From: Patescibacteria group bacterium
Lineage (GTDB): Bacteria; Patescibacteriota; JABMPQ01
Length of the DNA: 59,266 nt
Assembly: GCA_018818965.1 (NCBI GenBank)
Contig: JAHJQX010000020.1
Span: forward strand, 1 to 59,266
Reading direction: 5' to 3'
Part shown: positions 35,135 to 58,679 of the stretch, in pieces
Position numbering within the stretch: position 1 is the stretch's first letter
Layout: the number at the start of each line of letters is the position of its first letter
Notes under the pieces: generated by a model
Told to the model about the DNA's origin: nothing
The model's input: only the letters and a program-made list of their open reading frames with translations
The model's database searches: none
Translations under genes and position numbers: made by a program

Positions 35135-35138
35135 CCAT

Positions 35139-35249: not shown

Positions 35250-35281
35250 AAATATATAAACAACTAATTCATTATTAAGAA

Positions 35282-37072: not shown

Positions 37073-37123
37073 GTTATAGGTGTTAGGCATTAGGTTTTAG
37101 GTTAAATAAATTTTGAAAAATAT

Positions 37124-38521: not shown

Positions 38522-38543
38522 TCAGCGCGATTAGAATATATAA

Positions 38544-39170
38544 ATGGCCAAAAAATTAAACGTCAATCCAACTCGCATGGAGCTCTTGCGACTCAAGAAA
38601 CGAGTCAAGACGGCCAAGCGGGGATATAAATTACTCAAAGAAAAGCGTGATGGGCTGATGAAACAGTTCATGGCGATTATTCGTGAGGCCAAGGGAATGC
38701 GTGAGCAAGTAGAAGGCAAGATGCCGGAAGCGCTCAAGAGCTTTCTTTTTGCCTCGGCTGATATGCGACCAGAAGCACTCGAGGAATCGCTAGCTATGCC
38801 TTCACAAAAGGTGTCACTGGAGTCTGAGATCAAAAACGTCATGAGTGTCAACGTGCCGCAGTTTACTTTCAAACAAGAAGGCAAGTTTCTTTGCTATAGT
38901 TTATCTTCAACTAGCTCGCAGCTAGATGATTCGCTACGAACTTTTTCTGATTCATTGCAGGATATGATCAAGCTAGCGGAGATCGAGCATTCAGCTGCTT
39001 TGTTGGCGGAAGAAATTGAAAAAACCCGCCGCCGCGTAAACGCTCTCGAATACGTAATGATCCCAGACCTGGAAACAACGGTGCGATTTATTACTCTCAA
39101 GCTGGGTGAGCAGGAAAGAGCCGGTATTGCGATGGTGATGAGAGTTAAGGAGATGATTAAGGATCAGTAA
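38544..39170 (+). CDS. ntpD: V/A-type ATPase subunit D (central stalk)
   Basis: 208 aa. The motifs are NPTRMELLRLKKR.K.A.RGYKLLKEKRD.L and RRVNALEYV.IP.L. Confidence 0.93.
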   Translation: MAKKLNVNPTRMELLRLKKRVKTAKRGYKLLKEKRDGLMKQFMAIIREAKGMREQVEGKMPEALKSFLFASADMRPEALEESLAMPSQKVSLESEIKNVMSVNVPQFTFKQEGKFLCYSLSSTSSQLDDSLRTFSDSLQDMIKLAEIEHSAALLAEEIEKTRRRVNALEYVMIPDLETTVRFITLKLGEQERAGIAMVMRVKEMIKDQ

Positions 39171-43025: not shown

Positions 43026-43116
43026 TTGGTAAGTTGTAGTGAGTAGATCGTAGTCAATTAAAAGACATTCTTTGGTGCTCGCCCTGCTTGGTGGGCACTA
43101 TTTGTCAGCGAAATAT

Positions 43117-44391
43117 ATGCACGAATTAAAAAAACAAGACCCGGAGATCTATAATCTTATCCAGCAAGAAACAGCCCGGCAAAATGATGGTTTAGAGATG
43201 ATTCCGTCAGAAAACCATACTTCGCCCGCGGTACTGGAAGCCTTAGGTTCACGTCTTACCGATAAATACTCAGAAGGATATCCAGGGATACGTTATTATG
43301 GTGGATGTGATATTGTTGACCAGGTAGAAAATCTAGCTCGCCAGCGCGCTTGTGAACTTTTTGGCTGCGATCATGCTAATGTACAGCCTTATTCTGGCTC
43401 ACCCGCCAACATGGCAGTATATTTTGCTTTGGCTGATCCAGGCGATACGATCATGGGATTGAAATTGTTTCATGGTGGGCACATGACCCACGGTCTGAAA
43501 GTCAATTTTTCAGCTAAATATTACAATAGTGTACAATATAGCGCACGCCAAGATGGCTATCTGGATATAGATAATATGCGAGAGTTGGCCCGTAAGCATA
43601 AGCCCAAAGTTATCATTGTTGGGGGGACAGCTTATCCACGGATATATGAGTGGGATAAATACAAAGTGATTGCCGATGAGGTGGGGGCATATCTTCTCGC
43701 TGATATTAGTCATATAGCTGCTTTGGTGATTGGCAATGTACATCCCAATCCTATCGGAGTAGCTGATGTGGTGACTTCTACGACGCACAAGACTTTACGT
43801 GGTCCGCGGGGAGCGATGATCCTCTGCAACGGCCAGCCAGCAAAACCTTTGCGACCAGCCGAGCGAACCAAAGAAAATATTCCCACTTTAATTGATCGAG
43901 CAATTATTCCCGGACTGCAAGGTGGACCGCATAATCATCAAACAGGTGCGATCGCGGTGGCACTCAAAGAAGCGATGCAGCCGGAATTTAAAGAATATGC
44001 CCAGCAGGTAGTAAAAAATGCAGCGGTGTTAGCGGGGGAGTTGTTGAAAAAAGATTTTGACTTGATAACCGGCGGCACCGACAATCACCTAATTTTAATT
44101 GATATGAGTAATAAGAAAATTAGTGGCCAGCAAGCGGAGAAAGCTTTGGGTGAAGCGGGGATTACGGTTAATAAAAATACGATTCCTTTTGATAAACGTA
44201 AGCCGTTTGATCCTTCGGGAATTCGTCTAGGTACGCCAGCCTTGACAACGCGGGGAATGAAAGAGGGGGAAATGAAAACTATAGCCGGTTGGATTGATGG
44301 AGTTATCAGAAATATTAGTGATGGTAAAAAGATTGCCGCGATCAGGCAAGAGGTTTTAGAATTGACTAAAGAATTTCCTATCAGTATGTAG
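43117..44391 (+). CDS. glyA: serine hydroxymethyltransferase
   Basis: The motifs are LEMIPSENHTSPAVLEALGS.LT.KYSEGYPG.RYYGG, TSTTHKTLRGPRG (the PLP lysine) and GLQGGPHNH. I take the start at the ATG at 43117 (MHELKKQDPEIY); the track start at 43072 is a non-ATG extension. Confidence 0.95.
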   Translation: MHELKKQDPEIYNLIQQETARQNDGLEMIPSENHTSPAVLEALGSRLTDKYSEGYPGIRYYGGCDIVDQVENLARQRACELFGCDHANVQPYSGSPANMAVYFALADPGDTIMGLKLFHGGHMTHGLKVNFSAKYYNSVQYSARQDGYLDIDNMRELARKHKPKVIIVGGTAYPRIYEWDKYKVIADEVGAYLLADISHIAALVIGNVHPNPIGVADVVTSTTHKTLRGPRGAMILCNGQPAKPLRPAERTKENIPTLIDRAIIPGLQGGPHNHQTGAIAVALKEAMQPEFKEYAQQVVKNAAVLAGELLKKDFDLITGGTDNHLILIDMSNKKISGQQAEKALGEAGITVNKNTIPFDKRKPFDPSGIRLGTPALTTRGMKEGEMKTIAGWIDGVIRNISDGKKIAAIRQEVLELTKEFPISM

Positions 44392-44456: not shown

Positions 44457-45764
44457 ATGAACTACCGACAAACAACTGAATATCTTTTTGGCCTGCAGCG
44501 CTTTGGCAGTAAGCTGGATTTAATCAATATCACTAAGTTGTTGGAGCTGGTAGGCAATCCGCAGCGCCAGTTCAAGTCTGTCCATGTTGGCGGCACCAGT
44601 GGGAAATTTTCGGTGGTGCAAATGACGGCCGCTATTTTGCAGGCGAGTGGTTATAAAGTCGGGACATTTATTTCACCTCATTTGTCGCGATATACGGAAA
44701 GATTTTGTATTAACGGGAAAGAAATTGACGAGACTGCGGTCATCAAATTAACAAGTCAGCTAAAAGTAGCCGCTGACAAAATGGTCGCGCTACCAGATTT
44801 TCGTCACCCGACGTTTTTTGAGATGTCGACCGCGCTGGCGTTTTTATATTTTGCCCAGCAGGAGATTGATGTGGCGGTGGTAGAAGTGGGGATGGGGGGA
44901 CGATTGGATGCGACTAATGTCTTAGAGCCACTGGTGTCGGTGATCACACACGTGGACTTGGAACACACGCATGTATTGGGGGAGACAATCGAGGCGATAG
45001 CAGGCGAGAAGGCAGGGATTGTAAAAAAGGGAGGAATATTGGTGACGGGGGAGCGAAATGAGCAAACCCTAAATGTTTTTCGCAAAGCTTGTTGGCAGCG
45101 AGAGGCCGATTTTTTGGCTTTAGATAACGATTTTACGGTTAAGATTGGGAGGCAAGATCTGGCCGGGCAGGAATTTTCGTTAAAATTTAATGAGCAACGG
45201 TATAATTTGTCTACGCCGCTATTGGGTAATGTACAAATAAAAAATGCTGCACTGGCAGTGGTGACCGCTTTGGTTTTACGTGATAAGAATTATAAAATTT
45301 CTGAGGTAGCAATCAAAGCTGGTCTCAAAGCAGTAAAATGTCCCGGCCGATTAGAAATAGCCCAAAAAAATCCTTACGTTGTTTTTGATTGTGCCAAAGA
45401 TCCGGGGGCGATATTAGAATTAAGTAAAACAATCGAGCATTTTTTTTATTTTAGTAGGTTGATTTTAGTAATGGCGGTATCTGATGATAAGAATATCAAA
45501 CAAATGGCAAAAAATATTGCGCCGCTGGCAGATTTGGTAATAGCAACCAGACATGGAGTCAAAGAGCGGGCGCTTGATCCCAGAATCATCCAAAAAGAGT
45601 TTATTGTCTGCGGTGTTGACTCAATTGTTGCCGATGATGTCAAAATGGCAGTTGCCGAATCGTTAGATCAAGCTAACGTGGATGATCTTATCCTTGTGAC
45701 TGGTTCTGTATTTACCGTTGGAGAGGCGCGGGATGTTTGGTATGATGAGGTAAGGTCGAAATAA
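44457..45764 (+). CDS. folC: bifunctional folylpolyglutamate synthase/dihydrofolate synthase (Mur-ligase family)
   Basis: 435 aa. It has the P-loop-like VHVGGTSGKFS, VVEVGMGGRLDATNV and H.DLEHT..LG.T...IA.EKAGI.K. Confidence 0.9.
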   Translation: MNYRQTTEYLFGLQRFGSKLDLINITKLLELVGNPQRQFKSVHVGGTSGKFSVVQMTAAILQASGYKVGTFISPHLSRYTERFCINGKEIDETAVIKLTSQLKVAADKMVALPDFRHPTFFEMSTALAFLYFAQQEIDVAVVEVGMGGRLDATNVLEPLVSVITHVDLEHTHVLGETIEAIAGEKAGIVKKGGILVTGERNEQTLNVFRKACWQREADFLALDNDFTVKIGRQDLAGQEFSLKFNEQRYNLSTPLLGNVQIKNAALAVVTALVLRDKNYKISEVAIKAGLKAVKCPGRLEIAQKNPYVVFDCAKDPGAILELSKTIEHFFYFSRLILVMAVSDDKNIKQMAKNIAPLADLVIATRHGVKERALDPRIIQKEFIVCGVDSIVADDVKMAVAESLDQANVDDLILVTGSVFTVGEARDVWYDEVRSK

Positions 45765-45772: not shown

Positions 45773-46645
45773 ATGCAAAGATATCTCGACATAGTCGCCA
45801 ATATCCTTAAAAATGGCCATAAAAAAGAGGATCGTACCGGTACGGGCACGATTGCGATTGCCGGAGCAATGTTCCAGCACGAGATGGCCGACGGGTTTCC
45901 ATTATTGACGACCAAAAAAGTACCTTACCGCTTGGTAGCCAGCGAACTCGAGTTTTTCATCAGGGGAATCAGCGACAAAAAATGGCTCCAGGAGCGAGAT
46001 AATCACATCTGGGATGAATGGTGTACGCCGGAGAAGGTGCCTTACGCCCACGACGAAGAAACAAAGCAGAAAATGCTTAAGGAAAGAGATCTCGGCCCTA
46101 TCTACGGTTGGCAGTGGCGACATTTTGGCGCGGAGTATAAAGGCCATGATAAAGATTATACCGGCCAGGGAGTAGACCAGTTAGCTCGAATAATCCGGGA
46201 GCTCAAAGAGAAACCACACAGTCGTCAGATGCTAGTGCTAGCTTGGAATCCAATGGATGTAGAGAAGGTTGTACCACCATTTTGCCACTATGGCTGGCAA
46301 GTAACGGTAATGGATGGCAAACTTAACCTTTTCTGGAATCAACGGTCAGTGGACGTGGCGCTTGGCTTACCGTTTAATATTGCTAGTTATGCGACACTTT
46401 TACATTTATTATGCTTAGAGACAGGCTACGAAGAAGGAAGGCTAACTGGATTTTTAGCAGATACCCATATTTATCTAAATCAGATTGAAGGACTAAAAAA
46501 GCAGCTCCAACGGGATCCGAATAAATATGCTCTGTCGCAGCTCAAGACTGAAAACTTCAAATCCATATTTGACTGGGAGTACACTGATTCAAGGGTTGAG
46601 GGCTATGAGAGTTATCCAGGCATTAAATTTCCTATCGCAGTTTAG
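45773..46645 (+). CDS. thyA: thymidylate synthase (ThyA type)
   Basis: The motifs are EDRTGTGT, IWDEW, DLGPIYG.QWR, VDQL, SR.M.V.AWNP, FCHYGWQ (catalytic Cys), NQRS.DV.LGLPFNIASYA and DTHIY. There is a ~15-aa insert after WDEW. Confidence 0.95.
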   Translation: MQRYLDIVANILKNGHKKEDRTGTGTIAIAGAMFQHEMADGFPLLTTKKVPYRLVASELEFFIRGISDKKWLQERDNHIWDEWCTPEKVPYAHDEETKQKMLKERDLGPIYGWQWRHFGAEYKGHDKDYTGQGVDQLARIIRELKEKPHSRQMLVLAWNPMDVEKVVPPFCHYGWQVTVMDGKLNLFWNQRSVDVALGLPFNIASYATLLHLLCLETGYEEGRLTGFLADTHIYLNQIEGLKKQLQRDPNKYALSQLKTENFKSIFDWEYTDSRVEGYESYPGIKFPIAV

Positions 46646-46676
46646 AGATTTGGAGTTTAGTATTATTATTTTTGCA

Positions 46677-46734
46677 GCTGTGAGTGTTTGAGGAGTCATC
46701 CCGGTTCTACCGGGAGGGCGACGAGTTTCACAGC
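46677..46734 (+). other. GC-rich nested hairpin in the thyA-folA spacer
   Basis: The outer stem is GCTGTGA (46677-83) / TCACAGC (46728-34). The inner stem is CCCGGT-TCT-ACCGGG (46700-14). It sits in a 155-nt gap that is otherwise AT-rich. Confidence 0.35.
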
Positions 46735-46800
46735 CAGAAAAAGAATAACGCCAACCCTCCACCAAACCTGTAAAAGTTTATCACAAATTAACTATTCACC

Positions 46801-47280
46801 ATGATCGCTTTAATCTGTGCCGTTGCTGAAAATAATTGTATCGGCCTTAAAGGCAAACTTCCCTGGAATATCCCCGCTGATCTTAAACACTTTCAGGATA
46901 TTACTGATGGCCAGGTAGTGATTATGGGCGACGTGACCTATGAATCTATTATTGGCTATATTGGCAAGCCGCTACCGAATCGGCGCAACGTTGTTTTGTC
47001 TTTTGATAAAAACTATCAGGATAAAGTTCCAGCCGAAGTTGAGGTTTATCATAGTATTGAAGATGCGCTTAAGGCTCATGAGAGCGACGATGTCTTTTTT
47101 TGCGGTGGCGCTAGTATTTATAAACAAAGCATTGAACTGGCCGACACACTTTATATTACTCACGTTCACCAAACAGTAGACGGGGACACTTTTTTCCCCG
47201 AAATCGATCCCAAAAAATGGCAGGAAATTGAACGGGAAGATCACGAGAAATTCTCCTTTGTGGTTTATAAGCGTAAATAA
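46801..47280 (+). CDS. folA: dihydrofolate reductase
   Basis: 159 aa. The motifs are MIALICAVA.NN.IG..G.LPW.IP.DLKHF...T, MG..TYESI..PLP.R.N.VL and GGASIY. Confidence 0.93.
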   Translation: MIALICAVAENNCIGLKGKLPWNIPADLKHFQDITDGQVVIMGDVTYESIIGYIGKPLPNRRNVVLSFDKNYQDKVPAEVEVYHSIEDALKAHESDDVFFCGGASIYKQSIELADTLYITHVHQTVDGDTFFPEIDPKKWQEIEREDHEKFSFVVYKRK

Positions 47281-47282: not shown

Positions 47283-49997
47283 ATGGGCACAACCAAAACA
47301 CAATACTATCACCTTTCCGCGGAGGATGTATTCAAACAACTACAGAGTAGTCGAGAGGGACTATCTGCTAGTGAAGTAGCTAAGAGAGCAGTTGAGTATG
47401 GCTCTAATACTTTACCGAAAGAGAAGCCACCCACTTGGCTGGCTTTATTACTGTCGCAGTTTAAAGGGATTTTGATATATATATTGCTGGTAGCGGCGGG
47501 AATAAATTTTGGTTTAGTTTGTCGCGAGCACAATGGCTTGACATTTGGCCTGTCTGAGCAAGCTGATACTTATATTATTTTGTTAGCAGTTTTAGTTAAC
47601 GTTATAATCGGTTTTGTTCAGGAAGGACGAGCCCAGAAATCACTACAGGCGTTGGAGAAAATCATTACCTTAAAAGCGCGAGTTGTCAGAGACGGCCGAG
47701 AACAGATGATTGACGCTAAGGAATTAGTACCTGGCGATATCATTATCATAGCAGCCGGCGATAAAGTGCCAGCCGACGCCCGACTATTTGAAGTAGAAAA
47801 ACTGGCGATAAACGAAGCGCCTCTGACCGGAGAAAGTGCACCGGAGGATAAGGTGACAGATGAACTGAAAAAAGATTTAAGTTTGGGCGATCAGGCGAAT
47901 ATGATATTTACCGGGACGACTATTACTAAGGGTCAAGGAGTGGCTGTGGTTGTAGAAATTGGAGAAAAAACGGAAATTGGGCACATCGCTAAGCTTCTCA
48001 AAGAAACGAAAGACGAAGAAACGCCGCTACAACAAAAGCTGAATGTTTTTTCCAAGAATATCGGATTAGTCATTTTAGGGGTTACGATTTTACTGGTGAT
48101 AATCGGGTATTTGCAGGGAGATCCTTTTATTGAGATATTCACTGTCTCGGTGGCGGTGGCCGTCTCAGCTTTACCAGAGGGGCTAGCAGTGGCCGTGACC
48201 GTTATTTTGGCAGTGGGGATGAGGCGTATTTTGGGACAAAAGGCTCTGGTTAGAAAGTTAGCCGCCGCGGAAACTTTAGGCTCGACGACAGTTATTTGTA
48301 CTGATAAAACTGGGACATTAACTGAAGGCAATATGCGAGTAACTAATTTAATAACTTGGAGTAAAGATTTTGACATTGGCCATACCGAAAAAGAACATCG
48401 TGATGAGAAAAATGAGGAGCTAATTTTTGCCCTGCATGCGGGTATGCTAAATAATGATGCCCGCATAGATAATCCAGATGATAATTTGGAAAAATGGGTT
48501 ATCTCTGGCAACTTAACGGAACGAGCGTTGCTCTCAGCAGCTATTCAAGCTGGCATAGATTACAAGCAGGAAAGAGCCAAATATCCCCGTTTAGATTCAG
48601 TCCCTTTCGACTCCTCAATTAAGTATATGGCGACCTTGCATAAGCTCAGTGAGGAGCAAAATATTGTTTATTTCAAAGGTGCCTCGGAAAAGGTTCTGGC
48701 TCGTTGTCAAAAGATTAGAGTAGGTAACCAAACAGAAATATTTGACGAGGAAAAAAAGAAAAAATTCCAAGAAAAATTTATTGCTTTAAGCGGCAAAGGT
48801 CTCAGAGTAATAGCAATCGCTTATCAGAAGGTGGATCGAGAGCAGCAGAAATTAACGGACGTTGATTTGAATGAGCTGGTTTTTATCGGCTTCTTTGGCA
48901 TCAAAGATCCCCTGCGTTCTACCTCCAAAGAGACCGTTCATCTTTGTCAAAAAGCAGGCATTAAGATCGTGATGATTACGGGAGATCATAAGCTGACTGC
49001 TCAGGCGATTGCCCAGGATTTAAAGTTGCCAGCTCAGGAGGAAAATATTTTAGAGGGAGAGGATCTTGATAAAATGAGCGATGATCAGCTGAAAGAAATT
49101 GTGGACAAAATTTCTGTCTACGCGCGGGTAAGTCCAGAGCATAAGTTGCGTATTGTCCAAGCCTGGTTCAAAAGGGGTGAAGTAGTGGCGATGACCGGCG
49201 ACGGAATTAATGATTCGCCAGCTTTGAAGGCGGCTGATATTGGGGTGGCTTTAGGGTCGGGGACACAAGTGGCCAAAGAAACAGCTGAGATGGTTATCCT
49301 CGATGATCATTTTAAAAGTATTGTCGGCGCTGTTAAAGAGGGTCGGGGAATATTCGATAACATCAAAAAAACCGTCCTGTATTTAATTTCGGACTCTTTT
49401 TCTGAGGTGATATTGGTTATTGGCACCATGATCTTGGGACTGCCTTTGCCACTTACGGCCGCTCAGATTTTGTGGATTAATTTGGTGAATGATACCCTGC
49501 CCAGTTTATCTTTGACTCAAGAGCCCCGAGAGAAGGAAATTATGGATGAACCACCCCGCGGTCGGAAGGCAAAAATATTAGACAAGGAGATGAAAATATT
49601 AGTGGCTATTGCTAGTGGCGTTAATGGTTTAATGAATATTGTCCTCTTTGTCTGTTTTTATAAATTTACCGGAGATATTGTTTTAGCTCGGACAGTTGTT
49701 TTTGCGGCTTTAGGCGTTGATTCTTTAGTCTATATCTTTAGTGTCCGCTCACTACGGCATTCAGTTTTAAAGTTTAATCCGTTTTCTAATAAATATTTAA
49801 TTGGTGCATTGATTATAAGCTTTGGGTTTTTATTGGCTGCTATCTATTGGCCCTTCATGCAGCAGATTATGAAGACTAAATCTCTCGGTCTATTCGAGTG
49901 GGTGATAGTAGCGAGTATGAGTATCGTGGTTGTATCTTTGATCGAGCTAGTTAAGTATGTTTTCTTGCGTCGGGGGAACAGAGCGGTTAAAAATTAA
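47283..49997 (+). CDS. cation-transporting P-type ATPase (type IIA/Ca2+-ATPase-like)
   Basis: 904 aa. The motifs are TGES (LTGESAPE), PEGL in TM4, the phosphorylation site ICTDKTGTLT, KGA.E, MITGDH and TGDGINDSPALKAADIGVA. It has 10 TM. Confidence 0.93.
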   Translation: MGTTKTQYYHLSAEDVFKQLQSSREGLSASEVAKRAVEYGSNTLPKEKPPTWLALLLSQFKGILIYILLVAAGINFGLVCREHNGLTFGLSEQADTYIILLAVLVNVIIGFVQEGRAQKSLQALEKIITLKARVVRDGREQMIDAKELVPGDIIIIAAGDKVPADARLFEVEKLAINEAPLTGESAPEDKVTDELKKDLSLGDQANMIFTGTTITKGQGVAVVVEIGEKTEIGHIAKLLKETKDEETPLQQKLNVFSKNIGLVILGVTILLVIIGYLQGDPFIEIFTVSVAVAVSALPEGLAVAVTVILAVGMRRILGQKALVRKLAAAETLGSTTVICTDKTGTLTEGNMRVTNLITWSKDFDIGHTEKEHRDEKNEELIFALHAGMLNNDARIDNPDDNLEKWVISGNLTERALLSAAIQAGIDYKQERAKYPRLDSVPFDSSIKYMATLHKLSEEQNIVYFKGASEKVLARCQKIRVGNQTEIFDEEKKKKFQEKFIALSGKGLRVIAIAYQKVDREQQKLTDVDLNELVFIGFFGIKDPLRSTSKETVHLCQKAGIKIVMITGDHKLTAQAIAQDLKLPAQEENILEGEDLDKMSDDQLKEIVDKISVYARVSPEHKLRIVQAWFKRGEVVAMTGDGINDSPALKAADIGVALGSGTQVAKETAEMVILDDHFKSIVGAVKEGRGIFDNIKKTVLYLISDSFSEVILVIGTMILGLPLPLTAAQILWINLVNDTLPSLSLTQEPREKEIMDEPPRGRKAKILDKEMKILVAIASGVNGLMNIVLFVCFYKFTGDIVLARTVVFAALGVDSLVYIFSVRSLRHSVLKFNPFSNKYLIGALIISFGFLLAAIYWPFMQQIMKTKSLGLFEWVIVASMSIVVVSLIELVKYVFLRRGNRAVKN

Positions 49998-50708
49998 ATG
50001 TCCAGCGCTCATCAGAAAATTATCGTATTTGATGTTACAACGCAGTGTAATTTAGATTGCGCTTTCTGTTTTGGACCGGAGAGTGGTGAGGATGAACCCA
50101 CCAATCAAGAGGCGAAAGAAATTATTAAGCAAGTTGCTGCTAGCGGAGCTGATAAAATTGTTTTCACGGGCGGAGAGCCACTACTGCGGAAAGATATTTT
50201 TGAACTGGTAGAATATGCTAGTCAACAAGGTCTGTATACTATATTACATACCAATGGGTTGCTATTTGATGAGGTTGTTCTAGAAAGGTTACGGGGTCGG
50301 CTTGATCAGATAAATTTACCCCTAGATGGAGCGGATGTGAGAGCCAACGATAGCCAACGAGGCGCTGGTCATTTTAAAAAAGTGTTATCGTCCTTGAAGT
50401 TGTTAAAGGACGAGAATATTTTGGTGGTAATCTCTAGTGTGGCTACAGCTAGGAATCAATCATTTCTACCAGCTGTTGGAAGAGTCTTGCAAAATCTAGC
50501 TGGTCAAGATAAAGCGCGAATAGATAAATGGCGGGTTTTCCAGTTCAGATCTGAGGGAAAAGCAGTCGAGGCAGAAAAGCAGTTGCAAATATCTAAAGCA
50601 GATTTTGCTGGTCTGATTGCAAAAATTACTAGTCAGAAGTATCCATTTTCGGTACAGTTCATTACCAGTAATGATGAAGAATTTTATAGTTCGTATAAAT
50701 TAATATAA
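49998..50708 (+). CDS. radical SAM protein, compact and viperin-like
   Basis: The CX3CX2C motif is TTQCNLDCAFCF, followed by KIVFTGGEPLL, ILHTNG, LDQINLPLDG...ND.QRG.G, VVISSV.T..N and KWRVFQF. From memory, this series aligns along the length of viperin (TRQCNYKCGFCF, INFSGGEPFL, IVSNG, LDILAISCDS..EE.N...GRG, FKINSVIN..N, RWKVFQC). Its ATG abuts the P-type ATPase stop. Confidence 0.8.
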   Translation: MSSAHQKIIVFDVTTQCNLDCAFCFGPESGEDEPTNQEAKEIIKQVAASGADKIVFTGGEPLLRKDIFELVEYASQQGLYTILHTNGLLFDEVVLERLRGRLDQINLPLDGADVRANDSQRGAGHFKKVLSSLKLLKDENILVVISSVATARNQSFLPAVGRVLQNLAGQDKARIDKWRVFQFRSEGKAVEAEKQLQISKADFAGLIAKITSQKYPFSVQFITSNDEEFYSSYKLI

Positions 50709-50718
50709 GGACAATATT

Positions 50719-51393
50719 ATGAAATTTTCTGGGCGAAAAGTTTTATTTCTTGTTTTGTTTATTGTGCTCGGGTCGGTTGCTTTGCAGATCCCGCTGGTAA
50801 ATATTGTGGGATCAGCGAGAAAGTTTACGGTGCTAGAATTATTCGGGCCATCAGCCGGCATGTTAGCTGGGCCGGTAGTCGGCACTATTTCTGTACTAGC
50901 CGTGAAGATTATTAGTGCTTTGATAACTGGAGCTTCATTTGATGTGGCCAGTATGTTACTACTTCTGACCATGCCGTTAGCTGCTCTCTATTTTGGTTCT
51001 AAATCTAAGTTGGTCGCGGTTATCCCTGTTGTTTGTATGACTTTATTTATTATGCATCCAATTGGACGCGAAGTTTGGTATTTCTCACTTTATTGGTTGA
51101 TCCCTATTTTGGGAGTATTCAAGAAAAAATTTCTCATTCTTAATAGTTTGGGATCCACCTTCACTGCTCACGCAGTTGGCTCGACCGTCTTTCTTTATGC
51201 CTTTGGCCTGCCAGCTGCCGCCTGGGTTGGTTTGATTCCGCAAGTGGCCCTCGAGCGAGGTTTTTTCGCCGTCGGTATTTGGTTTAGTTACCTAGTAATG
51301 AATAATGTATTTAATTTACTAGCTAGCAGTTGGTGTTTCCGGTTTATGGGGAAATTGGTTAACGATAAATACGTTTATTTTTTAAAAAGCTAA
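50719..51393 (+). CDS. polytopic membrane protein (about 6 TM), possibly transporter or S-component-like
   Basis: 224 aa and hydrophobic throughout (e.g. VLFLVLFIVLGSVALQIP, GPSAGMLAGPVVGTISVLAV, LLLLTMPLAALYF). There is no family motif I can name, so the transporter idea is only a guess from topology. Confidence 0.65.
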   Translation: MKFSGRKVLFLVLFIVLGSVALQIPLVNIVGSARKFTVLELFGPSAGMLAGPVVGTISVLAVKIISALITGASFDVASMLLLLTMPLAALYFGSKSKLVAVIPVVCMTLFIMHPIGREVWYFSLYWLIPILGVFKKKFLILNSLGSTFTAHAVGSTVFLYAFGLPAAAWVGLIPQVALERGFFAVGIWFSYLVMNNVFNLLASSWCFRFMGKLVNDKYVYFLKS

Positions 51394-51396
51394 GTA

Positions 51397-52473
51397 ATGG
51401 CTAGCCAAGAGAGACCAGTTGGGGATGTAGCGAAAGACACTCAGGGATCATATGAGAAATATGGCCTAGGAGACGATGAGGATTCATCAGGTATTATTAA
51501 GAGATTAGAGCAGGGTGAGCTATCTCCCGAGTTGTTTATTAAGGAACAGGATGAGCTAAAAGGTGTTGCTGGTTTTTCGCAGGTGCTAGAGGTAGCTGGG
51601 GCAAAATTATTAGAGAGAGTGCAAGGTGATTATACCCAAGCGAGAAAATTTTTTAGTCTTCGTGGATATAATGCTGAGCAGGTAGATAAATTTCGTCGCC
51701 TGAAAAATTACGAAGACTTGTTGGCAGCTGGAGCAAAATTACTCACCGATGAGGGAGAAGCAAAATTAGCTCGTTTGTATGAAAATGATGACGCGCCAGT
51801 GCCAGTCGGCACATATTTTTTGCGGGCGACCTTTTTTGATCGAGATGGAAATAAAAAGGAGCAAAGAGGGATGGTTGGGCATATATATGAACCTACTACC
51901 CAAGCGGTATTAGAAAAAAAAGCTCGAGCAGAAATATCGGCGATGGGTCTGCATAATTTTGGTATGGCGGTGGGTGGTGAAAAGTATCCTCTGGGACAAA
52001 AAGTTGACTTTATTATCACTGACGAGCGGGGAACACCAGTGGGAGAACCTTCATATGTAACTGTCGATGGCGCCGGATATCCAGTAAAGCGAAACAAGCA
52101 AGAATTTCACCCGGTGTGGTTAGCGGAAATTGCCGAACATGAGAGGGAAAAAAGTCTTACACCCGATGAAAGGTTTAAAGAAGCGATATATAAGTTAGTT
52201 TCTGATTTGCCAGCGGAAGCAGTCAAGTACGATAACAAATTATCAGATTTGCTTGGTAATGGTGCCGGTAATCTAAGTATTTATGGTTGGCTGTCACTGT
52301 TACGTGGTCTGGCAGATAACAAGGTAATGTCGTATTTGCCAAGTGATGAGGTAGCGATCAAAAAGGCGGAAAAACTAGAAGATGCTTGGAAAATGATGCG
52401 TGGCGGAGTTGGTGAATCAGCTGAGGAGGCAGAAGAATTAGTTTATAGAGTTATTGAAAAAATAGTCGGTTAA
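51397..52473 (+). CDS. hypothetical soluble protein
   Basis: 358 aa with no recognisable motif. It is spaced 3 nt from the upstream gene and 2 nt from the downstream gene. Confidence 0.7.
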   Translation: MASQERPVGDVAKDTQGSYEKYGLGDDEDSSGIIKRLEQGELSPELFIKEQDELKGVAGFSQVLEVAGAKLLERVQGDYTQARKFFSLRGYNAEQVDKFRRLKNYEDLLAAGAKLLTDEGEAKLARLYENDDAPVPVGTYFLRATFFDRDGNKKEQRGMVGHIYEPTTQAVLEKKARAEISAMGLHNFGMAVGGEKYPLGQKVDFIITDERGTPVGEPSYVTVDGAGYPVKRNKQEFHPVWLAEIAEHEREKSLTPDERFKEAIYKLVSDLPAEAVKYDNKLSDLLGNGAGNLSIYGWLSLLRGLADNKVMSYLPSDEVAIKKAEKLEDAWKMMRGGVGESAEEAEELVYRVIEKIVG

Positions 52474-52475
52474 AT

Positions 52476-53213
52476 ATGCAGAATCCCATTTGCCTCTCTA
52501 CCGGGTCAGTTCACGAATTTGTTCCTGATTTCAACGAACGCATTACTAAAGTTCGGGAATTTAAGCCTGATGGAGTAGAGATATGTTTAGCTCGTCCGAC
52601 TGAGTTGTTGGGTTTTGAAATTACCAGCGAGAACTTAAAATATTTACTAGGACTGGAATTTGTTTCAATTCATGCCCCAGTTATCGATATCACGTATCGT
52701 AATGATGAATTGAGCAGGAAAGTATTGGCCAAAGTCGAGAAGCTATCCCAGCAAATTGGAGCCAGAAATGTTGTTTTCCACCGCAAAGAGATGGAAGATC
52801 CTCAAATATTAAATGATTATAATTTTATTGCTTCTCTAGAGAATTTAGATTTTCGTAGTCCGGGTTGTATGCAAAATGTGGCCGAAGTGGAAAAAGAATT
52901 GGCTAAAGATAATAATTTAAAGCTCACTTTTGATTTTGCTCATGCCTTTAGCATTGATCCTAATTCAATCTCTAGTTTTGTTAAAGAATTTCGAGACAAA
53001 ATAGTAGAATTTCACGTTGCCTTTCTCGATCAAGACACCAGCGGACGTCCATCTTACCACTGGTTTCTGTATAAAAACGACAGCGAACAAATTAGGTCAT
53101 TTTTAAAGTTCTTAGATAACCCTAACATACCGATTGTTATCGAAAGCACGGCTGCTGAGCCAGAAGAGATGAGTTGGCTGGGGGAGGAAATAGAGTATTT
53201 AAGAGAGATTTAA
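52476..53213 (+). CDS. xylose-isomerase-like TIM-barrel (AP endonuclease 2 family) protein
   Basis: The beta-strand-end motif series is GVEICL, VSIHAP, NVVFH, SLENLD, LTFDFAHAF, VEFHV and VIES, typical of sugar-phosphate isomerase/epimerase-type TIM barrels. Confidence 0.6.
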   Translation: MQNPICLSTGSVHEFVPDFNERITKVREFKPDGVEICLARPTELLGFEITSENLKYLLGLEFVSIHAPVIDITYRNDELSRKVLAKVEKLSQQIGARNVVFHRKEMEDPQILNDYNFIASLENLDFRSPGCMQNVAEVEKELAKDNNLKLTFDFAHAFSIDPNSISSFVKEFRDKIVEFHVAFLDQDTSGRPSYHWFLYKNDSEQIRSFLKFLDNPNIPIVIESTAAEPEEMSWLGEEIEYLREI

Positions 53214-54067
53214 TCAGCTTCGATAACCAAGACCCGCTCTTTTCCCGCGAAGTCTTTTTTTATTTGCGGATAGCTGGGTGGGAAATATTTTTGGGCTAAC
53301 TGGACTAGCTTCTTGGTAAATGTCGGGTCGATTTCTAGAAAAATCAGTGCTCCCGGTTTGAGATGTGGTTGTGTCTGGCTTAGTAATTTCTTATATATCT
53401 CTACTCCTCCTTCTCTAGCCAGTAGGGCGATCTTAGGCTCAAATAGTCTGATGTCCTTACTGACTCCCCTGGCTGTGTTTTTTAATCTCTCCGGAGTAAC
53501 ATAAGGGAGGTTGGCCACTATAATATCAACTTTTTCTGGCAGGGGTTCAAGCAGGTTACCTTGTAAAAGTGTGACTTGTTTTGGCATTTTGTACTTAGCA
53601 ACATTAATCTCAGCCACTGCCAAAGCTTCTGCAGAAATATCAACCGCATAGATTTTAGCGACCGGTAGATTCTTTGCCAAGGCCACCGCAATGCATCCCG
53701 AACCCGTGCCAATATCGGCAATAATTTTTTGCTGGGTGGTGTCACCATATTTTTCGATAACTGTCTCAACTGACACTTCCGTATCTGGTCGGGGGATTAG
53801 CACTCTTTCGTCAACGTGGAAATCCAACCCGTAAAATTCTTTGTGCTTGGTAATATAAGCTATTGGTTCGTGCTTTTGCCGGCGGGTGACTAATTGCCAA
53901 TATTTTTTCTGTTGTTCAGCCGGCAGTTCTTGATCCAACTGTTCGTACAATTTTTCCTTAGTAACACCAAGCACAAAACACAAAAGCACCTCCGCGTCGA
54001 GGGCAGAGGAATCAGAAATTGCCTGAAGAGATTTTAATGCCTTTTGAAGTACCTTTTTAATAGTCAT
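53210..54067 (-). CDS. prmC: release-factor glutamine N5-methyltransferase (PrmC/HemK)
   Basis: The motifs are EPIAYI......F.GL.F.V...VLIPRPDTE, the SAM motif I DIGTGSGCIA, and motif IV IVANLPYV (NLPY instead of the canonical NPPY). It is in the same transcription direction as prfA. Confidence 0.9.
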   Translation of the reverse strand: MTIKKVLQKALKSLQAISDSSALDAEVLLCFVLGVTKEKLYEQLDQELPAEQQKKYWQLVTRRQKHEPIAYITKHKEFYGLDFHVDERVLIPRPDTEVSVETVIEKYGDTTQQKIIADIGTGSGCIAVALAKNLPVAKIYAVDISAEALAVAEINVAKYKMPKQVTLLQGNLLEPLPEKVDIIVANLPYVTPERLKNTARGVSKDIRLFEPKIALLAREGGVEIYKKLLSQTQPHLKPGALIFLEIDPTFTKKLVQLAQKYFPPSYPQIKKDFAGKERVLVIEAD

Positions 54068-56975: not shown

Positions 56976-58679
56976 CTACTTCACCATCTTCACCATATAT
57001 TCTCCCCTTAGCCGATACCCAAATTTGCGATAATAATCTCGCACGCCCACACCAGAAATAACAGCGATTTTATCCAGTTTAAATTTTCGCCGGGCGATTT
57101 TTTCTGCTTCCTGCACTAGTTTTTTCCCCAATCCAGCGTGTTGCACAGCTCCCTTTTTTTTGGTGGCGACGGGGATCAATTGACCATATGAGTGAACTTC
57201 GCGAATCAGAGCCGAACCTTCGAGCACAGGCAAAAAGTGTTTTTGGCCGGAAAAATGTTGCGAAGGAATCCGCAAGCGTAAAAAGGCTAATATTTTGTCA
57301 TTTTTCACGTCCTCGAAAGATAGAAATATCTCTTTGCCGCCCGAGGCATCATAGTCACGCCGCGTTAGCTTCATATTGCCTGGCTGGTAATCTTGCCCCT
57401 TTATTTCTCGACACCGTATGCATCGACACTCCACTTTTACCGTTGCCATCCTTGCTTGTACATCCTGTCGGATATTCGAGATTTTATTGCCGGCGATGAT
57501 ATCAGTGGCCGGGATATCACGTCCTAGTCGCATAATACGAACGTAAGGCGGTATAATCGCTTTGATTTTTACTAGTAAACTGATGAGTTGGTTATTTGCA
57601 TACGGCTTATATTTACCTTGCTGGTACATTTGAGCCAGCTTAGAGTCCCGCGTAAGTACACAGGGATAAATTTTTAGCATGTCGGGTTGGAAGTCAGAGC
57701 TAGAAAATATTTGCTTAAATGTTTTTAAATCTCGCGCTGGTGTGCTGCCGGGCAAATTAGGCATTAAGTGGTAGTTGATTTTGCAGCCAGCGTCTTTGAG
57801 GAGTTGGGTAGCTCTAATAGTTTCCGCTATCCCATGTCCGCGTTTGGTTTGACGTAAAATATTATCATCGGTACTTTGTACACCAAGCTCAACCCGCGTC
57901 ACTCCTAATCGGCGCAGGCGAACAATTTCTGACTCGTCAATCAAGTCCGGTCGAGTTTCGATGGTGATACCAATAATGCGCTGCCGCGCTTTTTCGTTGC
58001 GCCTTTTTTCTGCCGCCAAGCAAATATATGTTTTTGGTAGCTCAAAACTTTTAATTTTCCGTAAGGCTGCCTCCGTTTTTGCTTTGGAATTTTTAATTTT
58101 CTCCCTTGGTTTACCACCTGCCTGCCGGCCGGCAAGGCTTGTAACTTCAAACTTAAAATCATTACAGGCTTTAAAACACCGCGCCACAAATTGACTTTGA
58201 TATTTCCCTGGAAGGGAAGAAAAAGATCCACCCAAGATAATAAGTTCAATTTTATTTGTTGAATGACCGGTAATATTCAGCGAATTTAGTCGCGCTGTTA
58301 CTTGTTTATAGGGCTCAAAGCCAGTCAAAATTGCGCGCATCACGGCTGGCTCATCGGAGAAGTAGCTTTTGGGCATTTTTTTCTCTGTCGGGCAATAAAT
58401 ACACTGACCAGGACAAGGATGGGGTCTGGTTAAGACAGAAATTGACGCAATTCCTGATAAGGTACGTGTTTTTTGTTTTTTCAGTAAGTGTTCTAATTCT
58501 GAGCTTGGCGCCACTTTTTTCGCTTTGACTAACTGTCGATAACACTCTAAGATTTCTATATTAGAAGGACAGGCGCCGCCATACTGGGCTGCCCAAGCGT
58601 GCTTGATGGACTCAAACGATTTGGTATTGAGTCTAGGGAGCTTAAGGGCTTGTTTTACGATTATTTCTACTGGATTCAT
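56976..58679 (-). CDS. elp3: Elp3-like radical SAM/GNAT tRNA-modification enzyme
   Basis: 567 aa. The radical-SAM cluster region is [13 protein letters not shown], followed by [19 protein letters not shown] and C-terminal GNAT motifs (REVHSYG......QH.GLGKKL..EAE.IA). Confidence 0.85.
58117..58140. repeat. third copy of the CCTGCCTGCCGG palindromic repeat core, in frame inside elp3
   Basis: CCTGCCTGCCGGCCGGCAAGGCTT. The central TGCCGGCCGGCA is a perfect 12-nt palindrome. On the coding (minus) strand it reads SLAGRQAGG (Elp3 residues 181-189). Confidence 0.55.

What the first reader, a model, noticed from the sequence alone, without database searches (positions are those of the whole stretch)
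49998..53213. A tight four-gene cluster: viperin-like radical SAM, 6-TM protein, 358-aa orphan and TIM-barrel enzyme
The four same-strand genes are separated by 10, 3 and 2 nt. They start on the base after the P-type ATPase stop and end in a 4-nt convergent overlap with prmC. The combination is a radical-SAM enzyme resembling the nucleotide-modifying antiviral viperins, a polytopic membrane protein, a protein with no recognisable family, and an AP-endonuclease-2/xylose-isomerase-like TIM barrel (a fold used for sugar or sugar-phosphate isomerisation and phosphodiester chemistry). I know of no described operon with this composition. It could encode synthesis plus export or import of a modified nucleotide or sugar, either as a defence or as a cofactor-salvage pathway.
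Basis: partly seen in the sequence, partly recalled or inferred. Interest (0 to 1): 0.7.

Follow-up and report, generated by a model that had tools for sequence, protein, structure and literature searches.

The report
Folate-salvage operon tail, not viperin defence
The four tightly packed genes are real, but they form the variable tail of a folate/thymidylate operon whose only constant member is an unannotated membrane protein, a good candidate for the folate importer not yet identified in ultra-small (CPR) bacteria and DPANN archaea; they are not an antiviral viperin system.

Summary
Observation confirmed. Four same-strand ORFs lie at 49998-53213 with gaps of 10, 3 and 2 nt, abutting the ATPase stop and overlapping prmC by 4 nt. 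The tight run starts earlier, though: folA-ATPase-rSAM have gaps of 2 and 0 nt.

The four genes are not an obligate module. At the same folA...prmC slot, related genomes carry rSAM-6TM-orphan-TIM, 6TM-TIM, or ATPase-6TM-orphan. Only the 6TM gene is constant.

- **6TM:** the family spans 42 lineages in CPR bacteria and archaea (DPANN and others). In 20-21 of them it lies within three genes of FolC, DHFR, ThyA/ThyX, SHMT, or the alternative enzymes FolC2-like and TmpR-like. One homologue passes the Pfam ECF S-component threshold. It is most likely a folate importer.
- **rSAM:** a distinct short clade, closest to viperins among solved structures. It fails the viperin threshold, lacks the C-terminal extension, and is normally paired with a GT4 glycosyltransferase.
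- **TIM barrel:** keeps 8 of the 9 endonuclease IV metal ligands.
- **Orphan:** models confidently with no structural match.

No evidence for defence or phage association was found.

The parts
43072..44391 (+). glyA, serine hydroxymethyltransferase. The true start is probably the ATG at about 43117. It is the first gene of the folate/one-carbon block.
   Evidence: NCBIfam NF000586 at 578 bits. Syntenic in L001 and L010.
44457..45764 (+). folC, folylpolyglutamate/dihydrofolate synthase.
   Evidence: NCBIfam TIGR01499 folC at 355 bits, cut-off 163. FolC is the commonest neighbour of 6TM homologues elsewhere.
45773..46645 (+). thyA, thymidylate synthase.
   Evidence: ORF. Pfam Thymidylat_synt on the orthologues in L001, L010 and L033, which are 86-88% identical.
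46801..47280 (+). folA, dihydrofolate reductase. It starts the tightly spaced run and is preceded by a 155-nt spacer.
   Evidence: Pfam DHFR_1 on orthologues, 85-91% identical. The gap to the next gene is 2 nt.
47283..49997 (+). P-type (type IIA, Ca2+-like) cation ATPase. It is a variable insert, present here and in L033/34 but absent from L001 and L010.
   Evidence: NCBIfam TIGR01522 at 663 bits. Presence and absence.
49998..50708 (+). Short (236 aa) radical SAM enzyme with C17-x3-C21-x2-C24. It has no SPASM domain and no viperin C-terminal extension. It belongs to a CPR-centred clade of 220-237 aa proteins.
50719..51393 (+). Polytopic (6-7 TM) membrane protein. It is a candidate folate-family vitamin transporter distantly related to ECF S-components, and the only constant gene in this slot.
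51397..52473 (+). 358-aa soluble protein of unknown function. It has an N-terminal helical region, a ~90-aa beta domain (residues ~138-223, motif GLHNFGMD) and a C-terminal helical domain that is absent from the L001 orthologue.
52476..53213 (+). 245-aa xylose-isomerase-like TIM barrel with an endonuclease IV-type metal-ligand set (H66, H102, E122, D153, H156, H180, H195, E223).
53210..54067 (-). prmC (release-factor methyltransferase). It is the convergent boundary gene, overlapping the TIM gene by 4 nt, and is not part of the unit.
   Evidence: Pfam PrmC_N/MTS on orthologues.

Best explanation
The four genes are the distal part of a folate-salvage/thymidylate-cycle operon: glyA-folC-thyA-folA-[Ca-type ATPase]-rSAM-6TM-orphan-TIM.

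**The 6TM protein.** This is the functional anchor. It belongs to a highly conserved, publicly unannotated family that is distantly related to ECF-transporter S-components. It most likely imports folate or a close precursor such as dihydrofolate or dihydropteroate. The imported compound would then be reduced by DHFR and trapped by FolC polyglutamylation, feeding ThyA and SHMT.

**The other three genes.** These are lineage-specific accessory genes riding in the same transcription unit.
- The rSAM is a short enzyme of a distinct clade whose core resembles viperin and MoaA. It probably acts on a phosphorylated (nucleotide or nucleotide-sugar) substrate, and its usual partner elsewhere is a GT4 glycosyltransferase.
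- The orphan is a fast-evolving soluble protein with no structural match to any solved or viral structure.
- The TIM barrel is an endonuclease IV-like, probably trinuclear-metal phosphodiesterase.

**Shown versus inferred.** Shown: the gene content, the variable composition of the slot, the folate-gene neighbourhood of the 6TM family, and the family placements. Inferred: the transported substrate, co-transcription, and all enzymatic activities.
For: **1. The slot varies.**
- W = ATPase-rSAM-6TM-orphan-TIM.
- L001 = rSAM-6TM-orphan-TIM.
- L010-12 = 6TM-TIM (6TM 70% identical).
- L033-35 = ATPase-6TM-orphan.
- L010 and L033 are each other's closest relatives (6TM 83%, DHFR 93%) yet kept different accessory genes.

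**2. The 6TM family neighbours folate genes.**
- Seventy-two homologues fall into 42 lineages at 80% identity.
- A folate-type gene is directly adjacent in 14-16 lineages and within three genes in 20-21. At 60% identity clustering the figures are 8 and 9 of 17 informative clusters.
- Control: 0 of 129 genes in the 13 loci fetched through rSAM or TIM homologues that lack the 6TM gene.
- The commonest Pfam families among +-2 neighbours are FolC-type Mur ligase (6), SDR (4), F420_ligase (4), SHMT, DHFR, ThyX and dCMP deaminase.

**3. Non-orthologous replacements occupy the same positions.**
- The F420_ligase neighbours score best on TIGR04132, 'putative folate metabolism gamma-glutamate ligase' (236 and 215 bits, against 153 and 116 for CofE).
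- The SDR neighbours score best on NF012208, the TmpR dihydropteridine/dihydrofolate reductase (214 and 201 bits, against about 155 for FabG).
- A CofE homologue replacing FolC has experimental precedent (PMC1971073).

**4. The 6TM has a weak S-component link.**
- The L024 homologue matches PF12822 ECF_trnsprt at 32.7 bits (GA 30.7) over its full length.
- UniRef names the Curtissbacteria homologue 'ECF transporter S component'.
- In L053 the gene is directly followed by BioY.
- The family has 22 invariant residues, including H, W, Y and E-R within membrane helices.

**5. The literature gap.** CPR genomes widely carry folA, glyA and folD, but no folate transporter was detected in the CPR genomes that study examined (PMC11974145).

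**6. The rSAM.** Six loci from at least four distinct genomes show argS-rSAM-GT4 with 0-14 nt spacing. The viperin model fails its cut-off. Family members score 266-347 bits on the family profile, while viperins score about 84.

**7. The TIM barrel.** Eight of nine E. coli Nfo metal ligands have counterparts with matching local motifs (FH, EN, DxxHAF, IPxxxE[ST]) and parallel spacing.

**8. No compositional anomaly.** GC is about 0.42 across the region.
Against: **On the 6TM protein**
- The window's own 6TM protein has no Pfam or NCBIfam hit.
- The family profile finds no solved S-component by sequence.
- hhalign against a BioY sequence is insignificant.
- I could not obtain a usable structure model (single-sequence pLDDT 49.8).
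- No ECF module (EcfT/EcfA) and no THF riboswitch were seen in the window or the loci.
- About half of the 6TM lineages have no recognisable folate gene nearby.
- The substrate could be a pterin, pABA-glutamate or a nucleoside instead of folate.

**On the accessory genes**
- The junctions between the accessory genes (0-10 nt) look translationally coupled, which would fit a functional link I cannot see.
- rSAM genes lie next to 6TM homologues in two further lineages (L051 rSAM-Nudix fusion; L061 short rSAM, convergent).
- The endonuclease IV assignment rests on motif and spacing comparison. hhalign against Nfo aligned only the C-terminal ~33 columns, at 3% probability.
Confidence: 0.6

Rival explanations
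1. The four genes are one functional pathway. The rSAM and the TIM enzyme would make or modify a nucleotide or sugar, with the orphan as a helper. The 6TM protein would export or import the product.
For: Gaps are 0-10 nt with TAA-ATG style junctions. All four genes are retained in two lineages (W and L001) that are no closer to each other than to the L010/L033 pair, so the four-gene state may be ancestral. The rSAM keeps the basic K-W-R motif at the position of viperin's R-W-K, which fits a phosphorylated substrate.
Against: Close relatives carry 6TM+TIM or 6TM+orphan without the rSAM. No other 6TM locus among 42 lineages has the TIM or orphan. rSAM homologues elsewhere pair with GT4, not with these genes. 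TIM homologues elsewhere have unrelated neighbours.
Confidence: 0.13
2. The rSAM, TIM and orphan act on the imported cofactor itself. They would form a new radical-SAM-dependent step in folate or pterin salvage or repair, attached to the transporter.
For: The genes are embedded in the folate operon. Two further rSAM genes lie next to 6TM homologues: L051 has 6TM-FolC2-like-rSAM/NUDIX fusion, and L061 has a convergent short rSAM of the same type. Nudix enzymes take part in pterin synthesis (FolQ; PMC1971073).
Against: Three of 42 lineages with an rSAM within two genes is close to my rough estimate of about one expected by chance. The main rSAM clade sits beside argS and GT4 with no folate genes (control). 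The rSAM is lost in L010 and L033, where the folate genes are intact.
Confidence: 0.1
3. The cluster is a prokaryotic viperin (pVip)-type antiviral defence system that produces a chain-terminating ddh-nucleotide.
For: PADLOC pVip models match at 99 and 91 bits over the full length. Viperins are the top solved relatives of the family profile. The TIM matches the PADLOC candidate PDC-M70B at 62 bits.
Against: NCBIfam viperin scores 81.5 bits against a cut-off of 180, and AhbD and StsB models score higher. GDGT-MAS scores 78 bits, nearly equal to viperin. The protein ends about 45 model positions (some 60-80 residues) before viperins do. The synteny is conserved and housekeeping (argS/ileS or folA/prmC), not a defence island. 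No family members occur in IMG/VR. No nucleotide kinase is present, and no PADLOC hit other than PDC-M70B appeared among the neighbours scanned. No publication mentions PDC-M70.
Confidence: 0.03
4. The 6TM protein is not a folate importer. It would carry another substrate tied to thymidylate or one-carbon metabolism (nucleoside, pterin, pABA-glutamate), or it is a membrane enzyme.
For: Its neighbours also include ThyA/ThyX and dCMP deaminase. There is no sequence match to characterised FolT structures. The invariant H, E and R residues could be catalytic.
Against: The strongest and most repeated associations are with glutamylating enzymes (FolC or FolC2-like, at least 10 lineages) and dihydrofolate reductases of two unrelated folds. 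These are the two steps specific to using imported folate. S-component affinities are shown.
Confidence: 0.2

Closest known systems
FolT / ECF-transporter S-components (Pfam PF12822 ECF_trnsprt; for example the FolT structures described in PMC4525288)
   Same: It is a small (~225 aa) polytopic membrane protein with about six helices. One family member passes the PF12822 gathering score over its full length. The gene sits beside folate-using genes, and in one locus beside another S-component, BioY. Its inferred role is vitamin capture in organisms that cannot make the cofactor.
   Different: Most members, including the window's, are invisible to PF12822 and to NCBIfam's FolT-type models. No sequence match to any solved S-component was found. 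No EcfT/EcfA module is seen nearby, and the study in PMC11974145 found none in the CPR genomes it examined. No THF riboswitch was found. The family has its own invariant motif, HPxGRxVWYFSLYWxIP.
Viperin / prokaryotic viperins (RSAD2, pVips; NCBIfam NF038283; PDB 6Q2P, 6B4C, 7N7H)
   Same: It is a radical SAM core with CNxxCxFCF, GGEP and TNG motifs and a basic-W-basic-x-F-Q strand motif (KWRIFQF against RWKVFQV). Viperins are the best-scoring solved relatives of the family profile.
   Different: It scores 81.5 bits against the 180-bit family cut-off. It is 236 aa, compared with about 290-320, and lacks viperin's C-terminal extension. It forms its own clade, with self-scores of 266-347 bits against about 84 for viperins. 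Its conserved partner is a GT4 glycosyltransferase, not a nucleotide kinase. Its genomic context is housekeeping.
Endonuclease IV (Nfo) within the xylose-isomerase-like TIM-barrel superfamily (Pfam PF01261 AP_endonuc_2)
   Same: There are counterparts for Nfo H69, H109, E145, D179, H182, H216, H231 and E261, with similar local motifs and near-identical spacing (D-x-x-H; H-15-H; 28-30 residues to the last E). These residues are invariant or nearly so across the 14-member family.
   Different: It is 40 residues shorter, and D229 has no clear counterpart. It fails NCBIfam's endonuclease IV models (E = 0.17). hhalign against Nfo is not significant. Whether the DNA-binding loops are present is unknown, so the substrate could be a small phosphodiester rather than DNA.
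Folate salvage gene sets with alternative enzymes (FolC2 = CofE homologue CT611; SDR-type DHFR such as FolM/TmpR), as in de Crecy-Lagard et al. 2007 (PMC1971073)
   Same: The same logic of transporter + reductase + glutamate ligase applies, and the same non-orthologous replacements appear beside the 6TM gene in different lineages.
   Different: Here the transporter partner is an undescribed family. The organisms are CPR bacteria and DPANN or other archaea. The SDRs carry TGxxxGxG, not the PTR1/FolM TGxxxRxG motif.

Membership tests
Viperin / pVip (antiviral radical SAM nucleotide dehydratase) | Radical SAM core with a CxxxCxxC cluster motif | tested here: met
   C17, C21 and C24 are invariant in 30 family members. 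Pfam Radical_SAM scores 83 bits.
Viperin / pVip (antiviral radical SAM nucleotide dehydratase) | Scores above the curated family threshold of a viperin-specific model | tested here: not met
   NF038283 viperin_w_prok scores 81.5 bits against a cut-off of 180. AhbD (104.7) and StsB (104) models score higher.
Viperin / pVip (antiviral radical SAM nucleotide dehydratase) | C-terminal extension beyond the partial barrel that closes the nucleotide pocket | tested here: not met
   The match ends at model position 236 of 281 (NCBIfam) and 219 of 262 (PADLOC) at the protein's last residue. Alignments to viperin chains leave about 60-84 target residues unmatched.
Viperin / pVip (antiviral radical SAM nucleotide dehydratase) | Defence-type genomic context (nucleotide kinase partner, defence island, variable neighbourhood) or presence in viruses | tested here: not met
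   The contexts are folA...prmC or argS-rSAM-GT4-ileS. No kinase is present. No family members occur in IMG/VR.
Viperin / pVip (antiviral radical SAM nucleotide dehydratase) | Converts CTP, UTP or GTP to a 3'-deoxy-3',4'-didehydro nucleotide | not testable with these tools
   This needs anaerobic enzyme reconstitution and LC-MS.
ECF transporter S-component (FolT-like) | Small integral membrane protein with about six transmembrane helices | tested here: met
   The protein is 224 aa. Hydropathy and the helices of the (low-confidence) model indicate 6-7 membrane segments.
ECF transporter S-component (FolT-like) | Recognised by an S-component profile (Pfam PF12822 or NCBIfam FolT models) | tested here: inconclusive
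   The window protein has no hit. Of 18 family members, one passes PF12822 (32.7 bits, GA 30.7, full length) and one is weak at 16 bits.
ECF transporter S-component (FolT-like) | S-component fold | tested here: inconclusive
   The single-sequence AlphaFold model has pLDDT 49.8. No PDB sequence hit was found.
ECF transporter S-component (FolT-like) | An ECF module (EcfT + EcfA/A') in the genome to energise transport | tested here: inconclusive
   None is present in the 59-kb window (no LSGGQ ATPase) or among the common neighbours. The rest of the genome is unavailable. PMC11974145 found no folate-transporter homologues (it cites ecfA as an example) in the CPR genomes it examined.
ECF transporter S-component (FolT-like) | Folate specificity | not testable with these tools
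   This is inferred only from gene neighbourhood.
Endonuclease IV (Nfo) family | Nine metal ligands (H69, H109, E145, D179, H182, H216, D229, H231, E261 in E. coli Nfo; positions recalled from the literature and checked against the E. coli sequence) | tested here: inconclusive
   Eight of nine have counterparts with matching motifs and spacing (H66, H102, E122, D153, H156, H180, H195, E223). D229 is unclear. This is a motif comparison, not a significant alignment.
Endonuclease IV (Nfo) family | Passes a curated endonuclease IV model | tested here: not met
   NF002198 gives E = 0.17 and 11.5 bits against a cut-off of 244.
Xylose-isomerase-like TIM barrel (Pfam PF01261) | Pfam gathering score | tested here: met
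   It scores 32.9 bits against a cut-off of 31.1, a marginal pass. Several family members also carry PF01261 in the precomputed annotations.
PADLOC candidate system PDC-M70 | All components (A and B) present together | tested here: not met
   Only PDC-M70B matches (59-63 bits) in the window, L013 and L016. None of the neighbours I scanned matches any PDC-M70 model. The system is undescribed in the searchable literature.

The most novel reading that the evidence does not exclude
The 6TM family is the unidentified folate importer of CPR bacteria and DPANN archaea, working without a recognisable ECF module. On its own I put this part at about 0.55.

In addition, in this clade the co-transcribed short viperin-like radical SAM enzyme, the endonuclease IV-like TIM enzyme and the novel-fold protein would form a previously unknown radical-SAM-dependent processing branch. 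That branch would act on the imported pterin or folate, or on a nucleotide feeding thymidylate metabolism.

The probability given here is for the whole combined reading.
Probability: 0.12. Interest if true: 0.75.

Novelty: new variant of a known kind. Interest (0 to 1): 0.45.

Why it matters
CPR bacteria and DPANN archaea make up a large share of microbial diversity and depend on other cells for cofactors. Most CPR genomes carry folA, glyA or folD, yet a 2025 survey found no folate transporter in the CPR genomes it examined (PMC11974145). The 2007 comparative-genomics study of folate salvage likewise noted that carriers are missing in many folate-requiring taxa (PMC1971073).

A conserved membrane-protein family that public databases label 'hypothetical', sitting next to FolC, DHFR and thymidylate synthase and their non-orthologous substitutes, gives a concrete and cheaply testable candidate.

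The negative result also matters. A protein that looks 'viperin-like' to PADLOC is here a member of a separate housekeeping-context clade, which warns against calling defence systems from single HMM hits.

The short rSAM-GT4 pair, the 'GLHNFGMD' domain and the compact endonuclease IV-like family are each small uncharacterised families worth a follow-up.

Tried and rejected
**The 6TM protein**
- A THF riboswitch would have been decisive for folate. Rfam found nothing in the window at gathering threshold, nothing in the thyA-folA spacer at E <= 1, and no riboswitch in 18 6TM loci.
The single-sequence model was too poor to search with (pLDDT 49.8).
- Sequence searches of the 6TM profile and of the PF12822-positive homologue against the PDB found nothing relevant.
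- hhalign of the 6TM family against a BioY sequence gave 3% probability.

**The orphan**
- The word-index homologue search found only the protein itself. The exhaustive search found 16 relatives.
- Foldseek against the PDB and BFVD gave no match (best E 0.014 and 0.08, TM < 0.2).
- The context look-up of a stand-alone 'GLHNFGMD' protein landed on a 1-kb contig.
- The viral scan needed a narrower alignment and then found nothing.

**The TIM barrel**
- The PDB profile search gave only noise.
- hhalign against E. coli Nfo and UlaE was not significant.
- tblastn against plasmids found no match.

**Defence reading**
- Viral-contig scans for the rSAM gave only generic radical SAM hits at <=35% identity (one 61-residue fragment reached 45%), all partial-length or below the family's >=36% identity. 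The TIM scan gave none.
- The PADLOC scan of neighbours found no PDC-M70A, and no paper mentions PDC-M70.

**Other rejected ideas**
- The SDR neighbours are not PTR1/FolM-type. They carry TGxxxGxG, and their best model is TmpR.
- The promoter/terminator scan gave nothing that delimits the operon.
- No GT4 glycosyltransferase is present in the window.

Full report
**1. Observation**

The ORF list shows four + strand ORFs exactly as described:
- 49998-50708 (236 aa)
- 50719-51393 (224 aa)
- 51397-52473 (358 aa)
- 52476-53213 (245 aa)

The gaps are 10, 3 and 2 nt. The upstream 904-aa P-type ATPase ends at 49997. prmC, on the opposite strand at 53210-54067, overlaps the last gene by 4 nt. The junctions read TAA-ATG or similar.

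In this window, same-strand gaps have a median of 33.5 nt and 15 of 42 are <=10 nt. A run of such gaps is therefore unusual. However, the run begins at folA, with a 2-nt gap from folA to the ATPase and a 0-nt gap from the ATPase to the rSAM. Spacing does not single out four genes. It singles out six, preceded by a 155-nt spacer and, further upstream, thyA, folC and glyA. GC content is flat at about 0.42.

**2. What each protein is**

*Radical SAM.* Pfam Radical_SAM scores 83 bits.
- NCBIfam gives only sub-threshold hits: AhbD 104.7, StsB 104, and viperin 81.5 against a cut-off of 180.
- PADLOC pVip models match at 99 and 91 bits.
- The homologue search found about 30 proteins of 209-247 aa at 36-58% identity, from Patescibacteria where a source names them. 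After these, scores drop abruptly to generic SPASM enzymes.
- A profile of this clade scores its own members at 266-347 bits.
- Against the PDB it scores viperins 77-84, GDGT-MAS 78, SkfB 70, BlsE 68 and MoaA 66.
- The alignments share CNxxCxFCF, GGEP, TNG and a K-W-R-I-F-Q strand matching viperin's R-W-K-V-F-Q. The clade ends about 20-30 residues after that strand, whereas viperins continue for 60-84 more.
- It is therefore a separate short clade with a viperin/MoaA-like core, and not a viperin.

*6TM protein.* The window protein has no Pfam or NCBIfam hit.
- Genome and metagenome scans gave 72 homologues.
- The family is strongly conserved, with 50% mean column identity from CPR bacteria to Micrarchaeota, Woesearchaeota and Njordarchaeota. 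It has 22 invariant residues, including the motif HPxGRxVWYFSLYWxIP.
- One member (L024) passes Pfam PF12822, the ECF transporter S-component model, at 32.7 bits (GA 30.7) over its full length. Another scores 16 bits.
- NCBI names the members 'hypothetical protein'. UniRef names one of them 'ECF transporter S component'.

*Orphan.* The word-index search found only the protein itself.
- The exhaustive search found 16 relatives: one full-length protein (P0136, 41%), the 257-aa L001 orthologue, and a set of 113-133 aa stand-alone proteins.
- The stand-alone proteins match residues ~130-233, with invariant G-x-Y and G-[LF]-H-N-x-G-M-D. None has a Pfam hit.
- AlphaFold with this alignment gave pLDDT 88.7 and pTM 0.79. 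The model has a helical N-terminal region, a small beta domain and a helical C-terminal domain.
- Foldseek found no match in the PDB or BFVD.

*TIM barrel.* Pfam AP_endonuc_2 scores 32.9 bits (cut-off 31.1) and PADLOC PDC-M70B scores 62 bits.
- The family has only 14 members in 5.8 billion clustered proteins.
- Its invariant residues are H66, E122, D153, H156, H180, H195 and E223, with H102 nearly invariant.
- Set beside E. coli endonuclease IV, these reproduce eight of the nine metal ligands. The local motifs match: NxxFH, [IL]EN, DxxHAF, IPxxxE[ST]. The spacing runs in parallel.
- hhalign against Nfo was not significant. I therefore call the protein endonuclease IV-like, not a member of that family.

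**3. Is the four-gene set a unit?**

No. Four related lineages share the flanks thyA-folA ... prmC-GT-C-prfA but differ in the slot between them:

| Lineage | Slot content |
|---|---|
| Window | ATPase-rSAM-6TM-orphan-TIM |
| L001 | rSAM-6TM-orphan(257 aa)-TIM |
| L010/11/12 | 6TM-TIM |
| L033/34/35 | ATPase(split)-6TM-orphan |

L010 and L033 are the closest pair (6TM 83%, DHFR 93%). The window and L001 are about equidistant from them and from each other. The four-gene state may therefore be ancestral, with rapid and differential loss of the rSAM, orphan and TIM. Only the 6TM gene is always kept.

Evolutionary rates differ widely between the genes:
- DHFR and ThyA are 85-93% identical.
- The 6TM is 65-83% identical.
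- The TIM is 59-66% identical.
- The rSAM is 58% identical.
- The orphan is 39-56% identical.

Outside this clade:
- The rSAM clade sits in argS-rSAM-GT4(-ileS) with 0-14 nt between the rSAM and GT4. This holds in six loci from at least four distinct genomes, and the rSAM sits alone in an archaeal-looking contig.
- TIM homologues sit beside unrelated genes such as GH130 or glycolytic genes.
- Profile searches of all held loci found no further co-occurrence of the orphan or TIM with the 6TM.

**4. What the 6TM gene travels with**

Clustering the neighbours and annotating them showed a consistent theme.

In 42 lineages (80% identity), a folate-type gene is directly adjacent in 14-16 and within three genes in 20-21. 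At 60% identity clustering, the figures are 8 and 9 of 17 informative clusters. In the 13 control loci fetched through rSAM or TIM homologues that lack the 6TM, 0 of 129 genes are of these types.

The partners are:
- FolC, seen in many lineages. Examples are FolC-DHFR-6TM with overlapping stop and start in Magasanikbacteria L019, and SDR-6TM-FolC in L025, L044 and L047.
- DHFR.
- ThyA, or SHMT-ThyX-6TM in Njordarchaeota L032.
- SHMT.
- dCMP deaminase.
- Two replacement enzymes. The first is a set of CofE-like ligases whose best model is TIGR04132, 'putative folate metabolism gamma-glutamate ligase'. The second is a set of SDRs whose best model is the TmpR dihydropteridine/dihydrofolate reductase.

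A chlamydial CofE homologue is known to complement folC (PMC1971073).

Finding both the reductase and the glutamate ligase replaced by unrelated folds at the same position is the strongest argument that the 6TM protein supplies their substrate. In L053 the gene is followed directly by BioY, another S-component.

No ECF module, ABC ATPase or THF riboswitch was seen.

**5. Mechanism proposed**

*Shown:* a conserved operon-like block glyA-folC-thyA-folA-...-6TM, and the 6TM family's repeated linkage to folate reduction, glutamylation and thymidylate synthesis.

*Inferred:* the 6TM protein binds and imports a folate. DHFR (or the SDR) reduces it. FolC (or the CofE-like ligase) polyglutamylates it for retention. 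ThyA and SHMT then cycle it. Transport may run without a dedicated ECF module, as reported for solitary BioY proteins (from my own knowledge, not checked here). Alternatively it may use a module encoded elsewhere.

The rSAM, orphan and TIM are accessory passengers. From its viperin/MoaA-like core, retained basic motif and GT4 partnership, the rSAM most likely performs radical chemistry on a nucleotide or nucleotide-sugar. From its ligand set, the TIM is most likely a metal-dependent phosphodiesterase, possibly an AP endonuclease. The orphan's role is unknown.

**6. Defence hypothesis**

This is not supported, for the following reasons:
- The rSAM fails the viperin threshold and lacks the C-terminal extension.
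- Its context is stable and housekeeping, with no kinase partner.
- No members of the rSAM, TIM or orphan families occur in IMG/VR.
- The PDC-M70B hit is one component of an unpublished candidate system, and no other PDC-M70 component turned up among the neighbours scanned.

**7. Novelty and value**

The finding as framed, a new four-gene pathway that might be antiviral, does not hold. What remains is useful: an unannotated and widespread membrane-protein family that is a strong candidate for a folate importer in CPR and DPANN organisms. A 2025 survey explicitly failed to find such a transporter in the CPR genomes it examined (PMC11974145).

Three small uncharacterised families also emerge: the short viperin-like rSAM paired with GT4, the 'GLHNFGMD' domain, and a compact endonuclease IV-like TIM barrel.

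The main weakness is that the 6TM assignment rests on gene context plus one marginal Pfam match. I could not obtain a usable structure model.

Noticed in passing
L002, L004-L006, L008, L009 (for example L004:6001-7833): The short rSAM clade is almost always followed, at 0-14 nt, by a GT4 glycosyltransferase. The pair lies between argS and ileS in several Patescibacteria genomes. It is a conserved two-gene unit of unknown function. The GT4 weakly resembles MshA, BshA, GlgA and an rSAM-associated GT family, TIGR04157.
   Followed up: partly
L051:5983-8871: The order is 6TM homologue, then a FolC2-like (TIGR04132-type) ligase, then a 488-aa radical SAM enzyme fused to a NUDIX domain with an intact Nudix box. 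This is a different rSAM placed next to the same transporter and folate genes.
   Followed up: partly
L061:814-1146 (- strand): This is the C-terminal 111 aa of a short rSAM carrying the clade's motifs (LPIDG, ATIAT, LWRIFKY). It is convergent with, and abuts, a 6TM homologue that is only 44% identical to the window's. It is a second, independent adjacency of rSAM and 6TM.
   Followed up: partly
window 47283-49997; L033:2481-5193; L023:2356-5034; L044; L063: A Ca-type P-type ATPase lies within a few genes of the 6TM gene in five lineages (four if the window and L033 are counted once). That is more than the roughly one I would expect by chance. In L033/34 the ATPase is split into 732-aa and 150-165-aa ORFs.
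   Followed up: no
window 46646-46800 and L033:1783-1977: The thyA-folA spacer holds a hairpin-forming element (CCCGG-loop-CCGGG core). It is present in the window and in L033 but in opposite orientations: 34 of 37 nt match only after reverse-complementing. It is absent from L001 and L010, where thyA and folA are 4-9 nt apart. It has no Rfam match, is not repeated elsewhere in the window, and its fold is not unusually stable (z = -0.6).
   Followed up: partly
P0142-P0151 (stand-alone proteins); window 51790-52095 region of the orphan: The ~100-aa 'GLHNFGMD' domain exists as free-standing 113-133 aa proteins in metagenomes. It has no Pfam family and no signal peptide. The one context I could fetch was a 1-kb contig.
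   Followed up: partly
window 30078-39170: This is a same-strand block of nine or ten ORFs. One 596-aa product has a Walker A motif. By eye it looks like a V/A-type ATPase operon, which is unusual for bacteria though reported in some CPR lineages. I did not annotate it.
   Followed up: no
window 9831-12563 and 12632-15385: These are two tandem, paralogous ~910-aa proteins with similar hydrophobic N-termini (IKRIAF...DIQPADD), probably secreted or surface proteins. They are followed by a Q/P-rich 472-aa protein.
   Followed up: no
window 56976-58679 (- strand): This is a 567-aa ELP3-like radical SAM protein. Its orthologues in L011, L033 and L034 carry Radical_SAM + Radical_SAM_C. It is conserved downstream of rpmE and prfA in all relatives and is a second rSAM in the window, unrelated to the finding.
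   Followed up: no
L053:90-1347: A 6TM homologue is immediately followed by a BioY biotin S-component (Pfam BioY 145 bits). These are two vitamin-transporter-type genes in tandem.
   Followed up: partly
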